Positions 54,001 to 63,000 of a DNA stretch of 64,000 nt are shown here, in pieces. The position numbers are program-made. The stretch covers positions 1,894-65,893 of the forward strand of contig CAMBVS010000009.1 of NCBI GenBank assembly GCA_945871425.1. Reading direction: 5' to 3'. The stretch is from Rhizobium sp. Q54. Its GTDB lineage: Bacteria > Pseudomonadota > Alphaproteobacteria > SHVZ01. Position 1 is the stretch's first letter. Each line of letters starts with the position of its first letter.

Positions 54001-57000
54001 TGCGAAACGTGAATCAGCTGCTTGTTGAAGATGATGAGGTCGCCGGGCGACATCGGCCGGCACGCCCGGTTGCGGAAGCCCGTGGTCGAGACCGCCGCCA
54101 GCCACTGCTCGGACTTGCTGTCGTCCAGAAGCTCGGGCTCGTTCTGGCTGCCTTCGAAGACGGCCATGCCGCCGCACACGTCGTCGATCTCGACCAAGGG
54201 CACCCACACGGTGAGGAAGTCGGAGAGGTGCTGGTTGTAGGTAATGTCCTGATGAGGCGGCACGGCGGCGCCGAAATTGTTCGGGAGGATGAACCGCGCC
54301 GTCGGCGGCATGTGCATGAAGATCGGGCGCCCGCCGAGAGCGGCGTCCAGGACCGCCCGCAGGCCCGCGTCCCTGGGAATGACCCAAAGCCGCTCGGACA
54401 GCCGCGTCGCCAACGGGAAATGGCCGAGCATGATCGACTGGGCGGCCTCCGGCAGATCCCCGGGGCGGGCCTCCGCCAGGACGGCCGCGACCTTGCGGCC
54501 GTTGTCGGGGTCGTCCGCATGGATGTCCCAGGGCGCCATCTCGGCAAACGCCTGGGCCAGGCTCTCTTGCAGAAATGCATGCACCGAGCCCACGACCCCC
54601 GGCGACAGGACGCCGCGAAGGATCTGGTAACCGTCCCGCTTCAGGCCCGAGATGTCGACGCCCGCCATTGAAGCATCCGCTGGCTGATTCATGACGATTA
54701 CGCTTTCGCCGCGGCCTTGCGAGCGGCGAAATGCCCCTCGGCAACGCGCCATTGATCATACCATAACCGGCTGGAAACGAAGCGGAGCGGGCTCGCCGCG
54801 TCGCTCGAACGACGAATCGGCGTCACCAGGAACTGAACAGGTGGCGGTGGCGGCGAAGGAAGCCCTGGCCGGCCCGCGCCCCCGCCTCGCCGACCGAGTA
54901 AGGGCGCAGCAGGGCGAGCCAGCGGTTCTGCAAGGCCTCGTCCTCCTCCGAATAGCTGGCGCGTCTGTCGGCCTTTTCCAGCATCTCCTCGGTGAGGGTG
55001 AGGATGTCTTCGGCTTCGCTGTCGACGGCTTCGAGGCCGCGATCCGCCAGGCACCTGGAATCGTAGGTGAGCGCCAGCGGCATCCGCATGCTTTCGTCGA
55101 AAGTCAGAAAGCGGCCGCTCTGCCGCTCGCGGATCAGCTTCGGGATGAACAGATCCGACTTGCTGGCCATCCGGTCGCCGGGCGGAAAGAAGTTCGTGGC
55201 GGCGACCGGCACGCCGAAGTTCAAGCCGACGACCATCATGCCGGACGTCGTCGCGAGGATGAAGCGGCAGCTCGCCGCGAGGAACACATCCATCCAGTCC
55301 GAGCGTTCGGCCGACAGCGCGTAGTCGACGACGTTCGCCATCGCCGGCAGCGGCGTCATGGTCGGATCGCCGAGGCGGACGACCCAGCCGCCGTGGCGCG
55401 TGATCGCCTCGATCGCCGGGAAGAAGGCGCGGATGTCGGCGTTCCGTGCGGCTTCCGGCGATGCGGGATCCTCGCGGAGATAGCCGGTCTCGCGGACATG
55501 GACGCAGACGAACCAGGCGCCGGCGGGTACGCCGAGGCGCCGCAGGTTCTCCTGCCCGCACTCCGCATGGTCGCGCCTCAGATCGAGGAGCGGTCCGCGT
55601 CCCTGACGCTGCCACTCCTCCTGTACCGCGTGATAGACACGATTCTTCGACATGGCACGGCCGTCGGGCAGGCGCATGTAGACGGGATTGAAGGGGACGC
55701 GGTCCTTCAGGGGCGCGATCCGCTCGATCAGCTTCGGATCGTCGATCACCGTGACGTATTGCCGCCAGTAGTCGAGGAGGCACGGGTTGACGACGCGCTC
55801 GCGCGGCGCAATCAACAGCGTGACGAAGGGCGGCAGCCACCCCAGCAGCTTCATCTTCACGTGAAGCTCGAGCTGATGGGCCATCTCGCCGATCCGCGTA
55901 GTCAGCTCGTCGGGGAACAGGATGCGGAAGCCATGCGCGCCAAACTCGTCGGCCGCGGCGCGGGACATCTCTGCGTCGATGAGGGTCGTGCAGAAGCGGG
56001 TGGCCTCCGCCTCCTCGCCGATGTCGCGCAGATACTGGACGACCGGGATGACGACGGCGGGATTGTCGGGGATGCGCTCGGCGGCGATGCGGGCCGGCTT
56101 CATCACCAGCTCGCGCGGCGCCCCTGCCTCCTGCAGCGCGCCGGCCAGGGTGACAAAGCCTTCAGTATAAGCTTGGTCCTCGACCACCGCCCGATAGAAG
56201 CATTTCATTGCCTCTTCGAAGCGGTCGGCGCCATGCAGGATCATGCCGCGCGCGACATGGGCCTCGCCGAAGGGGCGTCGGAGGCCGGTGACCCGCCGCA
56301 GCCAGAGATCCGCCTCGTCGATGCGCTTGACCCGGCCGAGCCCCTTGCCCAGCCGCAGCGTCAGCCCCTCCTGCGCCGGCGCAAGCGCGACCGCGGCGTA
56401 GAGGCTTTCGATTCCACGCGGTCCGTCGCCGGCGACGATCCGGGCCTCGCCCAGATCGGCGCGCCAGCCGGCATTGGTCGGCTCGATGCGCACCGCCATC
56501 TCCAGATGCGCGACGCCCTCGATGAGGCCTGCGGCGATCATGGCGAGACCGGTCTCGTGATGGGCGCGGCCGTTCTGCGGCGCCGCCTGCAGCACGGCGC
56601 CGAGGATGCCGACGGCTTCGGTGAGTTTGCCTGCCTCCCGCTGCGCCCGGGCGGCCTCGATCATCGCCGACAGATGCAGTCCGGTCATGCCCGTCCGGCA
56701 AGCACGCGACGTATGACGGAAGCGGCGCGCTCCGCCTCGGCCTCGGTCAGCGAGAAATGCGAGGGTAGCCAGAGGCCCCGCTCGGAAGCGCCGATCGCCG
56801 CCTCGAAGCCCGCGTCATCCTGCCTGTAGCTGTCCTGGCGGTGGATCGGCAGCCAGAAGCGGCGGCTGCCGATCTTCTCGGCCGTCAGCGCCGCCTCGAC
56901 CGCGTCGGCGCGCTCGATCAGCGCATCGGTCCACTGGGTGATCTCGCCGCCATTGTGATCGACTGCCGGCAGCACGATCCCCGGACAGTCGCCGAGCAGC

Positions 57001-60000: not shown

Positions 60001-63000
60001 CGGGTCTGGCGGCCGTCGCCCTGGATCGGGAAGCGGACCTTGCCCGAAGGCTGCGCCTTGACCGCGTCGTCGGCTCTCAGCGCCAGCTCCGGCACCACAT
60101 GCTCGAAGCCCATGTCGGCGCCGTAGACGTTGTGCGGCCGGAACACGGCGACGCGGCTGAAGCCGGTACGGCCGTAGTTCAGCGCGATCAGCTCGCTCGC
60201 CAGCTTCTGACCGCCATAGGAATAGCGCGGGTTGAGCGGATCGGGGATGACCAGCGGTGCCGTCTCGTCGGTCGGCACCTTGGGCGGGGTCTGGTAGGCC
60301 TCGGACGACGACGCCACCACCAGGTCGCCGATGCCGTTGGCCCGGCAGGCGTCGACCACGGCGAGGATGCCGCGGATTCCGACATCCAGCACCAGCTCCG
60401 GCTGCGAATAGAAATAGGCCGTGCCGTTGACCGAGGCCATGTGGACGACCTGCGTGCAGCCCTTGGCGGCACGCGCCACCGCCGCGGCGTCGCGGATGTC
60501 GGCCTCGACCATCTCGACCCTGTCGAGGACGCCGCCGAGACGCCGGGGATTGCCGCGCCAGTTGTTGTCGAGCACGCGGACCTTGCGGCCGAGCCCGACC
60601 AGGCGATCGACCAGCGCCGCGCCGAGGAAGCCGGTGCCGCCGGTGACGAGGGTGGTCACGAGGCCGTCGCCAGCCCGAGCCCATGGCTGCCGAGGCAGAC
60701 ATAGGCCCTCCCCTCCGGCATCAGCACGCTCTGCGGCGCGAAGTTGTTCCAGAGGTCGTAGACGATACCCGGAGTCGCCATGCGATCGGCGAGGCCTTCG
60801 AGCGGCATGGTGGCGAAGATCGGATGGTTGTTGTGGATGACGGCGACATGCGCGCCGCCCAGCGCGTCGGTAAGGGACGCCATCGGCTCGAGGCCGAAGC
60901 CGCGCTGGGCCTCGGCCGAGACCACAGCATCGAAGCCGCGAAATCTCGCACCCGGAAACGCCTCGGCGAGCTTCGCCAGCAGCGGCCTGGCGGTGGTGCC
61001 GCGGAGATCGTCGGTCGGCGGGCGGCCCTTGAAGGCGATGCCGAGCAGCGCGATCACCGGCTTCGCCGGAAGACCGCCAAGACGCGCGGCATGCGCCTTG
61101 ATCGCCGCCACCACCTCGTCCGGCTGGCGCTCGTTGATCATCCGGGCGGCGAGCGTCATCTCGGGCTTGATGCCGTGACGCTCGACGCTCTCGGCCAGGA
61201 TGTAGCTGTCCTTCTCGAGGCACGGGCCGCCGACGGGGCCAGGCATCGGCAGGTTGGTGCGCGGATATCCGCGCTTGCCCGCCTGGATCACCTCGGCCGC
61301 CGAGATGCCGACGGCATCGCAGATGCGGGCAACCTCGTTCGAATAGGCGAAATGCACGTCGCGCTGGGAGTTGTCGACCAGCTTCACCATCTCGGCCGCC
61401 TCGACCGAGGAGACACGGACGACCGTCGGCGTCAGGAACTGGAACAGCTGGCCGGCGCGGACGCCGACGTCCAGGCTCTCGCCGCCGACGATCTGCGGAA
61501 GCCAGCGCAGCTCCTCGAGTGCCTGGCCCTCGACGGTGCGTTCCGGACAGAAGGCGAGGTCGAAGCGCTTGCCCGACGACTCGAGGACCGGATGGACGAG
61601 CTCTCGCGTCGTCCCGATCTTCACCGTCGAACGCATGATGACGAGATCGTCGTCCTTGATGTTCTTCGCCACCTCGCGCGACACACTCTCGATCATGTCC
61701 ATGCGCGCGCGGCCGCCAGGTCCCATCGGGGTGCCGACGGTGATGATCCAGACCGTCGCCGGGCAGCCCTCGGGGATCTTCGGGAAGATCTTGAGGCGCC
61801 CGTTGCGGACGGCGCGGCTCAAGCGCTCGGTGATGCCGGGCTCGGAGAAGTGGGCCTTGCCCTCCTTCATCAGCCGGACCAGGTCTTCGCGGATCTCGAC
61901 GCCCCAGACCTCGAAGCCGACCTCGACCATCACGGTCGCCAGCGTCAGCCCGACGTAACCGAGACCCATGATGCAGACGATGCGATCACGAAATCCGTCT
62001 GGCACCGTGTTGGTCATGCGAATCGTCCAGCCTCGCCGCGAGTGGCGCGGAGTATAGAAGCCGTTCCCTAGGGCGCAAGCGGATGACCGCCCGGTGAGCG
62101 TGGTGTAGCTTCGCCGAGGCATGGATACCGCCGCAGAACTCGAAAACGCCCGCGCCTTGCGTCGGCTCGGGCGCCACAAGGCGGCCGCCGAGATCTGCCA
62201 GCGAATTCTCGAACGCCGGCCGGAACGCCCGGACGCTCTACTCGTCCTGGGCGCGATCGCCGCCGACCTCGGCGACCCGGCCGCCGCGGTGGGCTTCCTC
62301 ACTCGCGTCGTCAATCGCGACCCAAGCTACCCCGGTGCCGCCGTCCAGCTCGGCGACATGCTTGCCAGGATCGGCGAGGCCGGCGGCGCCAGCGCCTGGT
62401 ACGGGGCGGCCCTCGCCCTCGATCGCGATGCCGATCATGCGGCGCCGGCGCTGGCTCGCCAGCTCGCGGCGCAGGGTGATTTCGATGGCCTGCTGGCCCT
62501 GGGCAACGGGCAGCTCGCCCGCGAGCGGCCTGCTGTCGCCCTCGACGTCGCGCGCATCGGCCGGACCGGCTCGCCGACCCATGCCGGCCTCGCCCTCCTT
62601 GCCGGGCGGGCGCTGGTCGCTCTCGGCGAGACCGGCCGCGCCCTGGCGCTGCTGCGGGCAGCGGCTTCCGATCGGCCGGACGCGCCGGAGGCGGCGGCGG
62701 CGCTCGGCAAGGCCCTGGGCGACGACGTCGCCTGGCTCGGCCGCAGCTTCGCGCTCCGACCGACTGCCGGTGCGCTGACGGAATGGGCGGAGGCGCTGGC
62801 TCGTAGCGGACGGTCGGAACAGGCGCGGCGCGCCTTCGATGCGGTGCTCGCGGCCGATGGGGCGCACGGCGGCGCTCTCCGCGGCCTCGCCCGGCTCCGC
62901 CTTGCCCTCGGCGAAGCCGATGCCGCGATCGGGCTTGCCCGCCGACGGCTGGCCGCCGACGCCGCAGACGCCGGAGCCGCCCGAATCCTGGGCGAGGCCC

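What the first reader, a model, noticed from the sequence alone, without database searches (positions are those of the whole stretch)
56685..62017. Five-gene sub-operon predicting a C-methylated N-acetyl-amino-dideoxy hexuronic or hexose nucleotide
The order is UDP-HexNAc 6-dehydrogenase, 4,6-dehydratase-like SDR, zinc-ribbon C-methyltransferase, NeuD/PglD-like N-acetyltransferase, DegT aminotransferase, all with ATGA or 4-nt overlaps. The combination of a C-methyltransferase with a NeuD-type acetyltransferase is unusual. C-methyl branched sugars are mostly known from actinomycete antibiotics. The WbpA/WbpB-like pair at 37744-39932 adds a second 2,3-diamino-uronic-acid-type branch.
Basis: partly seen in the sequence, partly recalled or inferred. 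Interest (0 to 1): 0.6.

Follow-up and report, generated by a model that had tools for sequence, protein, structure and literature searches.

The report
Operon for a C-methylated amino-pentose
Six tightly coupled genes inside a flagellar gene cluster most likely turn a common nucleotide sugar into a rare methyl-branched, N-acetylated amino-pentose by first removing one carbon, and their core enzyme set is widespread in bacteria and archaea, with no published description found.

Summary
The five genes are real, on the minus strand, with the stated domains. Four of five junctions are 4-nt overlaps, and the coupling runs on into a sixth gene, a TPR glycosyltransferase.

The methyltransferase is a true TcaB9/TylC3-type sugar C-methyltransferase. 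Its zinc cysteines and catalytic residues are all conserved.

The "4,6-dehydratase-like" SDR is better read as an NDP-hexuronate 4-oxidase/decarboxylase:
- Its best solved match, by sequence and by fold, is the glucuronate decarboxylase EvdS6, followed by human UXS.
- It carries the decarboxylase-type S-S-E triad and the ArnA-R619-type arginine.
- The dehydrogenase upstream is most like CalS8 and keeps its catalytic cysteine.

In 80 genomes from many bacterial and archaeal phyla, the SDR sits directly upstream of the C-methyltransferase in 72. One of two dedicated dehydrogenase clades accompanies them in 55. The cassette is completed by either a GFO oxidoreductase or an aminotransferase, and by both in only 2 loci.

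The likely route is NDP-hexose, then uronate, then 4-keto-pentose, then C-methylation (probably C3), then 4-amination, then N-acetylation. This is ArnA/ArnB logic plus a methyl branch.

The island lies between flagellar genes, so flagellin is the probable acceptor.

The parts
60656..62017 (-). NDP-hexose 6-dehydrogenase (453 aa), first committed step. It makes the NDP-hexuronate. The nucleotide and the C2 substituent of its substrate are unknown.
   Evidence: Three UDPG_MGDP_dh domains; TIGR03026 scores 325 bits. Best solved homologue is CalS8, a TDP-glucose dehydrogenase, E 7.5e-57. blastp gives WecC 166 bits and Ugd 49 bits. The catalytic Cys is kept in GGPCLEKD. A DH of this same clade (56-62% identical) sits directly upstream of the SDR-MT pair in 5 of 80 genome loci, and likewise (61-63%) in L001-L003.
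59679..60659 (-). Extended SDR (326 aa, GTG start). Inferred NDP-hexuronate 4-oxidase/decarboxylase that releases an NDP-4-keto-pentose.
   Evidence: Top phmmer hit is 8shh/8sk0 at 122 bits, then hUXS1 at 105 bits. Foldseek of the AF2 model (pLDDT 85.7) puts EvdS6 decarboxylase first, E 2e-27, TM 0.85. Motifs are ASSSEAYQ (S-S-E), FRPHN and RRCPDI, aligned with UXS/ArnA TSE, FRPFN and [KH]RKP[DS]I; RfbB has TDE and DRRYAID. blastp gives hUXS1 122, RfbB 84, ArnA-C 64 and Gmd 47 bits. An ortholog lies directly upstream of the MT in 72 of 80 loci.
58432..59682 (-). TcaB9/TylC3-type SAM-dependent NDP-keto-sugar C-methyltransferase (416 aa). Inferred to methylate the carbon next to the 4-keto group, C3 by homology.
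   Evidence: Methyltransf_13, Methyltransf_23 and Methyltransf_14. PDB hits are TcaB9 at 242 bits, MtmC at 239 bits and KijD1 at 238 bits, all 3-C-methyltransferases. Zn cysteines C12, C15, C55 and C58 and the TcaB9 catalytic positions Y77, H181, Y222, E224 and H225 are invariant in 20 homologues.
57785..58429 (-). NeuD/PglD/VioB-type left-handed beta-helix N-acetyltransferase (214 aa). Inferred to acetylate the 4-amino group.
   Evidence: TIGR03570 scores 150 bits against a cut-off of 160.8. Best PDB hits are the Neisseria PglB acetyltransferase domain, WeeI, perosamine N-acetyltransferase PerB and VioB, all 4-amino-sugar N-acetyltransferases.
56685..57788 (-). DegT-family PLP aminotransferase (367 aa). 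Inferred to aminate C4 of the methylated 4-keto sugar.
   Evidence: DegT, E 8e-97. The best NCBIfam models are LegC, PseC, DesI, ArnB and WecE, all C4 aminotransferases. Best PDB hit is GDP-perosamine synthase at 230 bits; ArnB scores 161 bits. The SFSANK motif with the PLP lysine is visible in the translation. Orthologs of 45-70% identity occur in 19 of 80 cassette loci.
54823..56688 (-). TPR + TIGR04372 glycosyltransferase (621 aa), translationally coupled to the aminotransferase by an ATGA overlap. Probable transferase for the product sugar.
   Evidence: TIGR04372 domain scores 207 bits against a cut-off of 45, at residues 391-594; N-terminal TPR repeats. Overlap shown. Conserved next to the cassette on contig L004.
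62157..63998 (+). Divergently transcribed TPR-repeat protein, cut by the window end. Full-length relatives are 1036 aa with a Glyco_transf_41 domain and are followed by flgF, flgG, flgA and flgH.
   Evidence: TPR families, E 1e-20. The neighbours on L005 and L006 carry PF13844 and then flagellar rod and P-ring genes.
49202..54668 (.). Candidate tailoring genes downstream; their role is not established. PhyH 53859-54668 (-), TylF-type MT 53066-53839 (-), PhyH 52189-53076 (+), TylF-type MT 51437-52192 (+), class I MT 50091-51230 (-), RmlD-like SDR 49202-50065 (-).
   Evidence: Pfam calls on the identical contig L004, mapped to window coordinates. PhyH confirmed for 53859-54752.

Best explanation
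The operon encodes an ArnA/ArnB-like (or CalS8/CalS9/CalS13-like) pentose pathway with an added C-methylation step.

1. The dehydrogenase oxidises C6 of a housekeeping NDP-hexose to the NDP-hexuronate. That it is a two-fold dehydrogenase is shown by its domains and catalytic Cys. Its substrate is inferred.
2. The SDR oxidises C4 with NAD+. The resulting beta-keto acid loses CO2, and an NDP-4-keto-pentose is released (inferred).
3. The TcaB9-type methyltransferase deprotonates a carbon next to the ketone and transfers a methyl group from SAM. The enzyme class is shown. C3 is inferred from the solved relatives, and C5 is not excluded.
4. The DegT enzyme aminates C4 (inferred).
5. The NeuD/PglD-type enzyme N-acetylates the amine (inferred).

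The product is an NDP-4-acetamido-4-deoxy-C-methyl-pentose. It would carry an additional 2-acetamido group if the starting sugar is a HexNAc. The translationally coupled TPR glycosyltransferase then uses this sugar. Because the island is inserted in a flagellar gene cluster, the acceptor is most likely flagellin.
For: - MT class and catalytic residues.
- SDR nearest solved relatives: EvdS6 decarboxylase is first by phmmer and by Foldseek, and hUXS1 is second. With a family profile, hUXS1 scores 158 bits, the Pcryo_0617 oxidoreductase/decarboxylase 152 and EvdS6 151, against DesIV at 137.
- SDR motifs: an S-S-E triad and RRCPDI aligned with ArnA R619 and UXS R277, where RfbB has T-D-E. PMC10338323 states that most glucuronate decarboxylases have a TSE triad and that the conserved Arg was used to identify CalS9, AviE2 and EvdS6.
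- DH: best solved homologue is CalS8, with the catalytic Cys kept.
- Genomic coupling in 80 species-level loci from many phyla. The SDR lies directly upstream of the MT in 72. A DH of one of two cassette-specific clades is present in 55, plus 4 with other DHs. GFO occurs in 41 and AT in 19, with both in only 2. This is the pattern expected if each consumes the same keto intermediate.
- Nucleotidyltransferases are almost never adjacent (4 of 80), so the pathway starts from a housekeeping NDP-hexose, as Arn does.
- Many distant loci add a polyprenyl-phosphate-sugar-synthase-like GT2 and a PMT_2 GT-C protein, which is the ArnC/ArnT logic.
- AT and AcT resemble C4 aminotransferases and 4-N-acetyltransferases.
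- 4-nt overlaps link DH, SDR and MT.
- Flagellar context: FliE, FlgC, FlgB, MotB-like, FliM and FliL lie on one side. FlgF, FlgG, FlgA and FlgH lie beyond the TPR-GT41 gene in relatives.
Against: - No enzyme activity was measured.
- SDR subclasses are notoriously hard to separate by sequence (PMC10338323). The margins are modest: the profile gives hUXS1 158 bits against RmlB-type 137-142, and the top profile hit is a Pyrococcus UDP-galactose 4-epimerase at 177 bits.
- GDP-mannose 4,6-dehydratase also has a T-S-E triad, so the triad alone does not exclude dehydration.
- NCBIfam's best models for the SDR are LegB and RmlB at about 120 bits, far below their cut-offs.
- The DH is absent within 8 kb in 21 of 80 loci, although several of these are short contigs.
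- The methylation position, the nucleotide, the C2 substituent and the stereochemistry are all undetermined.
- No flagellin gene lies in the window, and the acceptor is inferred only from position.
Confidence: 0.55

Rival explanations
1. The SDR is a 4,6-dehydratase acting on an NDP-hexose or NDP-HexNAc. The MT, AT and AcT then give an NDP-4-acetamido-4,6-dideoxy-3-C-methyl-hexose, a kansosamine- or sibirosamine-like skeleton. The dehydrogenase makes an unrelated uronic acid for the same glycan.
For: [quoted passage not shown]
- RmlB-type structures are close structural neighbours, with TM about 0.84-0.85.
- All characterised TcaB9/TylC3-type enzymes act on 4-keto-6-deoxy sugars (names; own knowledge).
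- GMD shows that a T-S-E triad is compatible with dehydration.
Against: - Scores are 3-4 fold below the curated cut-offs.
- The T-D-E triad of dTDP-glucose dehydratases is replaced by S-S-E.
- E. coli RfbB and RffG match the SDR less well (84 and 60 bits) than hUXS1 does (122 bits), and RffG matches a different window SDR, 41502-42509, much better at 118 bits.
- This route leaves unexplained why two dedicated DH clades travel with the SDR-MT pair across phyla (55 of 80) and why the DH overlaps the SDR by 4 nt.
- Nucleotidyltransferases are nearly absent from the loci.
Confidence: 0.2
2. The carboxylate is kept. Either the SDR oxidises C4 of the NDP-hexuronate without decarboxylation, or it oxidises C4 of the hexose and the DH acts last. 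The product is an NDP-4-acetamido-4-deoxy-3-C-methyl-hexuronic acid.
For: - It uses all five enzymes in one pathway and fits the DH coupling.
- UDP-glucuronate 4-epimerases handle a 4-keto-uronate without losing CO2, and the SDR has distant similarity to them: 6zl6 scores 102 bits with the family profile.
Against: - A free 4-keto-hexuronate is a beta-keto acid that is prone to decarboxylate (established chemistry).
- The nearest solved relatives are decarboxylases, not uronate epimerases.
- No enzyme that releases an NDP-4-keto-hexuronate for downstream tailoring is among the close homologues.
Confidence: 0.12
3. This is a variant of the best explanation in which methylation is at C5, not C3. 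The 4-keto-pentose is rebuilt into a 4-keto-6-deoxyhexose, and the final product is an ordinary-looking 4-acetamido-4,6-dideoxyhexose, or a 2,4-diacetamido-2,4,6-trideoxyhexose if the route starts from a HexNAc. It would be made by a non-canonical route.
For: - C5 is also alpha to the ketone.
- NovU-type 5-C-methyltransferases share this fold (own knowledge).
- The AT and AcT best match LegC/PseC/Per and PglD/PerB/VioB, which act on 6-deoxy sugars.
- NeuB/NeuC genes lie near the cassette in 4 distinct related loci.
Against: - All solved relatives are 3-C-methyltransferases, and their catalytic residues are conserved.
- Three enzymes would replace what one 4,6-dehydratase does.
- No NeuB/NeuC homologue is in the window.
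Confidence: 0.1

Closest known systems
E. coli/Salmonella Arn pathway (Ugd, ArnA C-terminal decarboxylase, ArnB aminotransferase, ArnA N-terminal formyltransferase, ArnC, ArnT)
   Same: The logic is the same: NDP-hexose 6-dehydrogenase, then an SDR oxidative decarboxylase releasing a 4-keto-pentose, then a C4 DegT aminotransferase, then N-acylation. The window AT scores 158 bits against ArnB. The SDR shares the S/T-S-E, FRPxN and RxP[DS]I motifs with ArnA. Distant cassette loci add an ArnC-like GT2 and a PMT_2 GT-C protein.
   Different: - A C-methyltransferase is inserted between decarboxylation and amination.
- Acylation is acetylation by a left-handed beta-helix enzyme, not formylation.
- The DH is WecC/CalS8-like rather than Ugd-like (166 against 49 bits).
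- No ArnC, ArnD or ArnT homologue is in the window. A cytoplasmic TPR glycosyltransferase is coupled instead.
- The SDR is only 23% identical to the ArnA C-terminal domain.
Actinomycete aminopentose and pentose pathways: CalS8/CalS9/CalS13 (calicheamicin), AtmS8/AtmS9 (AT2433), EvdS6 (everninomicin)
   Same: CalS8 is the best solved homologue of the DH (196 bits). EvdS6 is the best solved homologue of the SDR by sequence and by fold. These enzymes make and release an NDP-4-keto-pentose for transamination or C-branching (PMC10338323).
   Different: - Identity is only about 30%.
- EvdS6 has a TDE triad, whereas the window SDR has SSE.
- The eurekanate branch is a TPP-dependent two-carbon addition at C4, not a SAM methyl.
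- The context here is a proteobacterial flagellar island, not an antibiotic gene cluster.
TcaB9, KijD1, TylC3 and MtmC NDP-hexose 3-C-methyltransferases
   Same: The three-domain architecture, zinc site and catalytic His/Glu/Tyr residues are the same, with about 240 bits to each solved member.
   Different: Known members act on dTDP-4-keto-2,6-dideoxy or 4-keto-6-deoxy hexoses made by 4,6-dehydratases. Here the partner is a UXS/EvdS6-like SDR preceded by a 6-dehydrogenase. This subfamily is 55-66% conserved across Bacteria and Archaea.
GDP-perosamine / N-acetylperosamine (Per, PerB) and legionaminic acid precursor (LegB, LegC, LegH) pathways
   Same: The AT best matches perosamine synthase (230 bits) and the LegC model (243 bits). 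The AcT matches PerB, PglB-AcT and VioB.
   Different: All scores are below the equivalog cut-offs. No NeuB, NeuC or NeuA is in the window. The extra DH and C-MT have no role in those pathways.
FlmG-type flagellin glycosyltransferases of alpha-proteobacteria
   Same: A TPR domain fused to a glycosyltransferase domain, encoded next to flagellar genes and sugar-synthesis genes. FlmG is a modular flagellin glycosyltransferase in Caulobacter (PMC7591256).
   Different: The catalytic domains here are TIGR04372 and, in the divergent gene, GT41-like. They were not compared directly with FlmG. The donor would not be pseudaminic acid.

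Membership tests
TcaB9/TylC3-type NDP-sugar C-methyltransferase | N-terminal four-cysteine zinc ribbon (Pfam Methyltransf_13) | tested here: met
   PF08421 scores 45.5 bits against a cut-off of 31.3. C12, C15, C55 and C58 are invariant in 20 homologues.
TcaB9/TylC3-type NDP-sugar C-methyltransferase | SAM-binding Rossmann domain plus C-terminal Methyltransf_14 domain | tested here: met
   PF13489 scores 58 bits. PF08484 scores 140.7 bits and covers 160 of 160 profile positions.
TcaB9/TylC3-type NDP-sugar C-methyltransferase | Catalytic residues probed in TcaB9 (Tyr76, His181, Tyr222, Glu224, His225) | tested here: met
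   The HMMER alignment to 3ndi puts query Y77, H181, Y222, E224 and H225 at these positions. All are invariant in alignment A1. The list of TcaB9 residues comes from my own knowledge of the mutant structures 4e2w-4e33.
TcaB9/TylC3-type NDP-sugar C-methyltransferase | SAM-dependent methyl transfer to the carbon alpha to a 4-keto group of an NDP-sugar | not testable with these tools
   Needs an enzyme assay.
NDP-glucuronate decarboxylase (UXS / ArnA / CalS9 / EvdS6) | Extended SDR with GxxGxxG and YxxxK | tested here: met
   TGGTGFLG at residues 6-13 and Y148-GGQ-K152.
NDP-glucuronate decarboxylase (UXS / ArnA / CalS9 / EvdS6) | T/S-S-E triad instead of the T-D-E triad of dTDP-glucose dehydratases | tested here: met
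   S118-S119-E120 aligns with hUXS1 T-S-E and ArnA T-S-E, where RfbB has T-D-E. The rule is stated in PMC10338323. GMD also has T-S-E, so this feature is not exclusive.
NDP-glucuronate decarboxylase (UXS / ArnA / CalS9 / EvdS6) | Conserved arginine equivalent to ArnA R619 / hUXS1 R277 | tested here: met
   R284-R285 in the invariant RRCPDI aligns with ArnA HRKPSI and UXS KRKPDI.
NDP-glucuronate decarboxylase (UXS / ArnA / CalS9 / EvdS6) | Closest characterised homologues are decarboxylases | tested here: met
   EvdS6 is first and hUXS1 second by phmmer. EvdS6 is first by Foldseek. The margins over RmlB and GalE types are modest, and the family profile ranks a Pyrococcus UDP-galactose 4-epimerase first.
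NDP-glucuronate decarboxylase (UXS / ArnA / CalS9 / EvdS6) | Partnered with an NDP-hexose 6-dehydrogenase that supplies the uronate | tested here: met
   4-nt overlap with the DH. Cassette-specific DH clades are present in 55 of 80 loci.
NDP-glucuronate decarboxylase (UXS / ArnA / CalS9 / EvdS6) | NAD+-dependent loss of CO2 from NDP-hexuronate | not testable with these tools
   Needs an enzyme assay.
dTDP-glucose 4,6-dehydratase (RmlB) | T-D-E catalytic triad and the equivalog score | tested here: not met
   SSE in place of TDE. TIGR01181 scores 117.5 bits against a cut-off of 365.
NDP-sugar 6-dehydrogenase (UDPG_MGDP_dh) | Three-domain architecture and the catalytic cysteine | tested here: met
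   The Cys lies in GGPCLEKD, aligned with the Ugd and WecC cysteines.
   The UDP-ManNAc DH models score 195 and 184 bits against cut-offs of 750 and 459. TviB scores 96 against 592. The best PDB hit is CalS8, a TDP-glucose DH, at 196 bits, followed by a Pyrococcus UDP-ManNAcA DH at 165 bits.
NeuD/PglD/VioB sugar N-acetyltransferase | Reaches the TIGR03570 cut-off | tested here: inconclusive
   150 bits against a cut-off of 160.8, with the full-length profile matched. The best PDB hits are all members of this group.
Legionaminic / pseudaminic acid pathway | LegB/LegC or PseB/PseC equivalog scores plus NeuB/NeuC/NeuA-type genes | tested here: not met
   LegB scores 120 against 475, LegC 243 against 420 and PseC 214 against 423. 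tblastn with NeuB and NeuC found nothing in the window.
Arn (Ara4N) lipid A modification system | ArnC, ArnD and ArnT partners | tested here: not met
   No ArnC or ArnT homologue, and no match to the GT2 or GT-C genes of related loci, in the window. ArnD was not searched. The operon works like the cytoplasmic half of Arn but is not a member.
Flagellar glycosylation island | Sugar-synthesis and glycosyltransferase genes embedded in a flagellar gene cluster | tested here: met
   FliE, FlgC and FlgB at 21.5-22.7 kb, MotB-like at 27.8 kb, FliM at 30.7 kb and FliL at 32.3 kb. FlgF, FlgG, FlgA and FlgH lie beyond the TPR-GT41 gene on L005.
Flagellar glycosylation island | Flagellin actually carries the glycan | not testable with these tools
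   Needs mass spectrometry of flagellin.

The most novel reading that the evidence does not exclude
The DH, UXS-like SDR and C-methyltransferase triad defines a previously undescribed and very widespread pathway, found across many phyla of Bacteria and Archaea. It would make pentose-derived, C-methyl-branched sugars from NDP-hexuronates and would come in two flavours: a 4-hydroxy form completed by a GFO reductase and a 4-acetamido form completed by AT plus AcT. Most lineages would deliver the sugar through polyprenyl phosphate and a GT-C transferase. In this alpha-proteobacterium it has been recruited to decorate the flagellum. The sugar would be isobaric with N-acetyl-4-amino-4,6-dideoxyhexoses (187.084 Da), so it may already have been misassigned in glycoproteomic data.
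Probability: 0.45. Interest if true: 0.7.

Novelty: new variant of a known kind. Interest (0 to 1): 0.55.

Why it matters
Branched-chain sugars made by SAM-dependent C-methyltransferases are textbook features of actinomycete antibiotics. They are thought to start from 4,6-dehydratase products.

A pentose-derived branched sugar was recently called unique to everninomicin (PMC10338323). If this operon works as inferred, C-methylation of a decarboxylase-derived 4-keto-pentose is a common and ancient solution, used on cell surfaces across Bacteria and Archaea.

It would add a new monosaccharide class to flagellin and envelope glycobiology. It would give new enzymes for glyco-engineering: a 4-keto-pentose-releasing decarboxylase and a pentose C-methyltransferase. 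It would also warn that 187-Da 'dHexNAc-like' residues in bacterial glycoproteomics may be something else.

It makes a concrete five-enzyme reconstitution directly testable.

Tried and rejected
1. I read the SDR as a LegB/RmlB-type dehydratase, which NCBIfam ranks best. I rejected this as the favoured reading after motif, BLAST, profile and fold comparisons and the DH co-occurrence analysis.

2. I considered a legionaminic-acid-type pathway, because LegB, LegC and NeuD were the top models and NeuB/NeuC lie near the cassette in L001, L003, L032 and L082. There is no NeuB or NeuC in the window, and all scores are below cut-off.

3. I considered the WbpA/WbpB/WbpE/WbpD (2,3-diacetamido-uronate) logic for the cassette. 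No GFO gene lies in the operon. The AT's best family-model matches are C4 aminotransferases, although WbpE scores about the same as ArnB in the PDB search.

4. The PDB molecule name 'dTDP-glucose 4,6-dehydratase' for 8shh/8sk0 was misleading. The entry title and paper show it is the EvdS6 decarboxylase.

5. The top profile hit 8rdg is a Pyrococcus UDP-galactose 4-epimerase with an S-S-T motif and no Glu. Its high score comes largely from the Rossmann domain, which is my reading of the alignment. I checked PMC12820599 as a possible source, but it does not describe that entry.

6. Ten literature searches looked for any DH/decarboxylase/C-methyltransferase pathway, for C-methylated pentoses, for 3-C-methyl-mannose biosynthesis, or for C-methyltransferases in flagellin islands. 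They found no precedent. The library misses subscription journals.

7. The promoter/terminator scan of 52-62.5 kb was uninformative.

I repeated it with database homologues.

9. I could not assign the nucleotide (UDP, TDP or GDP), the C2 substituent or the methylation position from sequence.

Full report
**Observation**

The span 56685-62017 holds five minus-strand genes exactly as described.
- A 453-aa nucleotide-sugar dehydrogenase (DH, 60656-62017).
- A 326-aa extended SDR (59679-60659, GTG start).
- A 416-aa methyltransferase (MT, 58432-59682) with the Methyltransf_13 / Methyltransf_23 / Methyltransf_14 architecture.
- A 214-aa hexapeptide acetyltransferase of the NeuD/PglB/VioB type (AcT, 57785-58429).
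- A 367-aa DegT aminotransferase (AT, 56685-57788).

Pfam E-values range from about 1e-12 (weakest domain hit) to 1e-97. Third-position GC is 0.84-0.92 for the three of these genes that the scan scored, and 0.89 for the sixth gene.

The junctions are GTGA, ATGA, a 2-nt gap (TAG-GC-ATG), GTGA and then ATGA into a sixth gene. That gene encodes a 621-aa protein with N-terminal TPR repeats and a TIGR04372 glycosyltransferase domain (54823-56688). The same arrangement is found at 95-100% identity on three independent metagenome contigs. The closest named SDR homologue (89% identical) comes from an uncultured alpha-proteobacterium.

**The methyltransferase**

Its best solved homologues are TcaB9, MtmC and KijD1, at about 240 bits over the full length. 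All three are NDP-hexose 3-C-methyltransferases.

The four zinc cysteines (C12, C15, C55, C58) are invariant in an alignment of 20 homologues. So are the residues at the TcaB9 catalytic positions (Y77, H181, Y222, E224, H225).

A 6-dehydrogenase and a 4,6-dehydratase cannot process the same sugar, because a uronate has no 6-hydroxyl to eliminate. Either the DH serves another sugar, or the SDR is not a dehydratase.

The DH keeps the catalytic cysteine (GGPCLEKD), so it should make a uronic acid.

**What the SDR looks like**

- By phmmer, the best PDB match is 8shh/8sk0 (122 bits), followed by human UDP-xylose synthase (105 bits).
- The depositors' molecule name for 8shh is 'dTDP-glucose 4,6-dehydratase'. 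The entry is in fact EvdS6, a characterised NDP-glucuronic acid decarboxylase that releases NDP-4-keto-xylose.
- An AlphaFold model (mean pLDDT 85.7) also finds EvdS6 first by Foldseek (E 2e-27, TM 0.85).
- A profile of 15 family members scores hUXS1 at 158 bits, the Psychrobacter Pcryo_0617 oxidoreductase/decarboxylase at 152 and EvdS6 at 151, against DesIV at 137. The top profile hit, however, is a Pyrococcus UDP-galactose 4-epimerase at 177 bits.
- I took reference sequences from E. coli K-12. An alignment with them shows the family motif ASSSE[VA]YQ. This is an S-S-E triad like the T-S-E of UXS and ArnA, where RfbB has T-D-E.
- The same alignment shows FRPHN (ArnA has FRPFN). It also shows an invariant RRCPDI aligned with ArnA HRKPSI (R619) and UXS KRKPDI (R277).
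- blastp gives hUXS1 122 bits, RfbB 84, Fcl 77, ArnA C-terminal domain 64 and Gmd 47.
- The EvdS6 paper states that most glucuronate decarboxylases have a TSE triad. It adds that the conserved arginine was used to recognise CalS9, AviE2 and EvdS6, and that SDR subclasses are hard to tell apart by sequence.

The sequence evidence therefore favours a decarboxylase but is not decisive on its own. GMD also has T-S-E.

**The dehydrogenase**

Its best solved homologue is CalS8 (196 bits). CalS8 is the TDP-glucose dehydrogenase that feeds the CalS9 decarboxylase in calicheamicin aminopentose synthesis (function from my own knowledge; CalS9 is described).

The DH is closer to WecC (166 bits) than to Ugd (49 bits). 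All equivalog models score far below their cut-offs. A HexNAc substrate is possible but unproven.

**Comparative genomics**

The MT belongs to a subfamily that is remarkably conserved. A pattern scan of one genome per species found at least 592 loci. The best 80 are 55-66% identical to the window protein. They come from:
- Proteobacteria, Chloroflexota, Planctomycetota, Verrucomicrobiota and Acidobacteriota;
- Cyanobacteria, Gemmatimonadota, Omnitrophota and CPR bacteria;
- archaea (Woesearchaeota, Aenigmatarchaeota, Nanoarchaeota, Methanosarcinales).

In these 80 loci:
- An SDR ortholog (46-66% identical) lies immediately upstream of the MT in 72.
- A DH is present in 59, and in 55 it belongs to one of two cassette-specific clades. 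Type 1 is window-like (at least 56% identical) and directly precedes the SDR. Type 2 is at least 45% identical to the L014 enzyme across phyla. The catalytic Cys is kept in every cassette DH that was aligned.
- A GFO/IDH/MocA oxidoreductase occurs in 41 and an ortholog of the window AT in 19, with both in only 2.
- Nucleotidyltransferases are adjacent in only 4.

The near-exclusive alternation of a reductase-type enzyme with an aminotransferase (plus acetyltransferase) is what is expected if both consume one keto intermediate made by the SDR and methylated by the MT.

Many loci also carry a GT2 that resembles polyprenyl-phosphate-sugar synthases. A few also carry a PMT_2 GT-C membrane protein. 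Together these follow the ArnC/ArnT logic.

In sum, the DH is part of the pathway, the pathway starts from a housekeeping NDP-hexose, and the SDR is the keto-generating step on the DH product.

**Aminotransferase and acetyltransferase**

- The AT's best models are LegC, PseC, DesI, ArnB and WecE, all C4 aminotransferases.
- Its best structure match is GDP-perosamine synthase at 230 bits, with ArnB at 161.
- The AcT's best structure matches are the PglB acetyltransferase domain, WeeI, PerB and VioB. All acetylate a 4-amino group.

**Proposed mechanism**

1. NDP-hexose is oxidised to the NDP-hexuronate by the DH.
2. The SDR carries out C4 oxidation and decarboxylation to give an NDP-4-keto-pentose.
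3. The MT methylates alpha to the ketone. C3 is likely by homology, and C5 is not excluded.
4. The AT aminates C4.
5. The AcT N-acetylates the amine.

The product is an NDP-4-acetamido-4-deoxy-C-methyl-pentose. Its residue is C8H13NO4, 187.084 Da by my own calculation, which is isobaric with a 4-acetamido-4,6-dideoxyhexose.

Only the enzyme classes and conserved catalytic residues are shown. Substrates, decarboxylation, regiochemistry and stereochemistry are inferred.

**Destination**

The sugar island (about 33-62 kb) sits inside a flagellar cluster.
- On one side lie FliE, FlgC and FlgB at 21.5-22.7 kb, a MotB-like gene at 27.8 kb, FliM at 30.7 kb and FliL at 32.3 kb.
- On the other side a divergent TPR protein starts at 62157. 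In full-length relatives it is a 1036-aa TPR-GT41 protein followed by flgF, flgG, flgA and flgH.

TPR-glycosyltransferase fusions next to flagellar genes recall FlmG, the modular flagellin glycosyltransferase of Caulobacter (PMC7591256). The window has no homologue of the GT2/GT-C pair used in other lineages. Flagellin O-glycosylation by the coupled TPR-TIGR04372 enzyme is therefore the most likely use, but this rests on position only.

The second dehydrogenase (37744-39021) has Asn where the catalytic Cys should be. It is more Ugd/TuaD-like. It is embedded among these genes:
- a GmhA-like isomerase and a transaldolase (TIGR02134, 356 bits);
- a split transketolase;
- an HldE-like kinase/nucleotidyltransferase with reversed domain order;
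- two more DegT enzymes and three SDRs.

This looks like a heptose- or higher-sugar pathway, not a WbpA/WbpB 2,3-diamino-uronate branch.

**Novelty**

Each enzyme class is known, and the Ugd/ArnA/ArnB and CalS8/CalS9 logic is established. The new element would be SAM-dependent C-methylation of a decarboxylase-derived 4-keto-pentose.

Ten full-text searches found no paper combining these elements. The EvdS6 paper calls a pentose-derived branched sugar unique to everninomicin. The library lacks many subscription papers, so prior description cannot be excluded.

I rate this a new variant of a known kind. Interest is moderate to good, because the cassette is so widespread and the hypothesis is directly testable.

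Noticed in passing
window 37744-39021 (-) and 39018-39932 (-): The second UDPG_MGDP_dh-family protein has Asn in place of the catalytic cysteine (AGGNLERD against GGYCLPKD in Ugd). It is coupled to a short GFO/IDH/MocA oxidoreductase. It cannot be a normal two-fold 6-dehydrogenase. From memory, the pair recalls LmbL/LmbZ of lincosamide octose tailoring.
   Followed up: partly
window 34433-47828 (-): A block that looks like a higher-carbon (heptose/octose) nucleotide-sugar pathway. It contains a split transketolase (34433-36192), a class I MT, an SDR, the Cys-less DH, a GFO, an HldE-like protein with the adenylyltransferase domain N-terminal to the kinase (39938-41551), two SDRs, two DegT aminotransferases, a transaldolase (TIGR02134, 356 bits) and a GmhA-like SIS isomerase.
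   Followed up: partly
window 51437-54668: Two PhyH-family dioxygenase and TylF-type methyltransferase pairs in mirror-image orientation lie just downstream of the operon. They are followed by another class I methyltransferase and an RmlD-like SDR. These may be hydroxylation and O-methylation tailoring enzymes for the glycan.
   Followed up: no
loci L007-L086 (for example L014:2664-10092 and L018:2991-10861): In most other phyla the SDR-MT pair travels with a NUDIX hydrolase, a distinct 'type 2' dehydrogenase clade, a GT2 resembling polyprenyl-phosphate-sugar synthases and, in a few loci, a PMT_2 GT-C membrane protein. This is an Arn-like lipid-carrier delivery system for the same sugar. The NUDIX role is unexplained.
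   Followed up: partly
PDB entries 8shh/8sk0, as returned: The depositors' molecule name ('dTDP-glucose 4,6-dehydratase') contradicts the entry title and paper (EvdS6, an NDP-glucuronate decarboxylase). Relying on the molecule name alone would have supported the wrong reading of the window SDR.
   Followed up: yes
window 24569-27757 (-): A 1062-aa protein with only weak TPR matches lies between the MotB-like gene and the flagellar rod genes. Its function is unknown.
   Followed up: no
window 33243-34436 (+): An FkbM-family methyltransferase (Methyltransf_21) lies at the flagellar-side edge of the sugar island, next to fliL. FkbM-type methyltransferases are common in glycan O-methylation.
   Followed up: no
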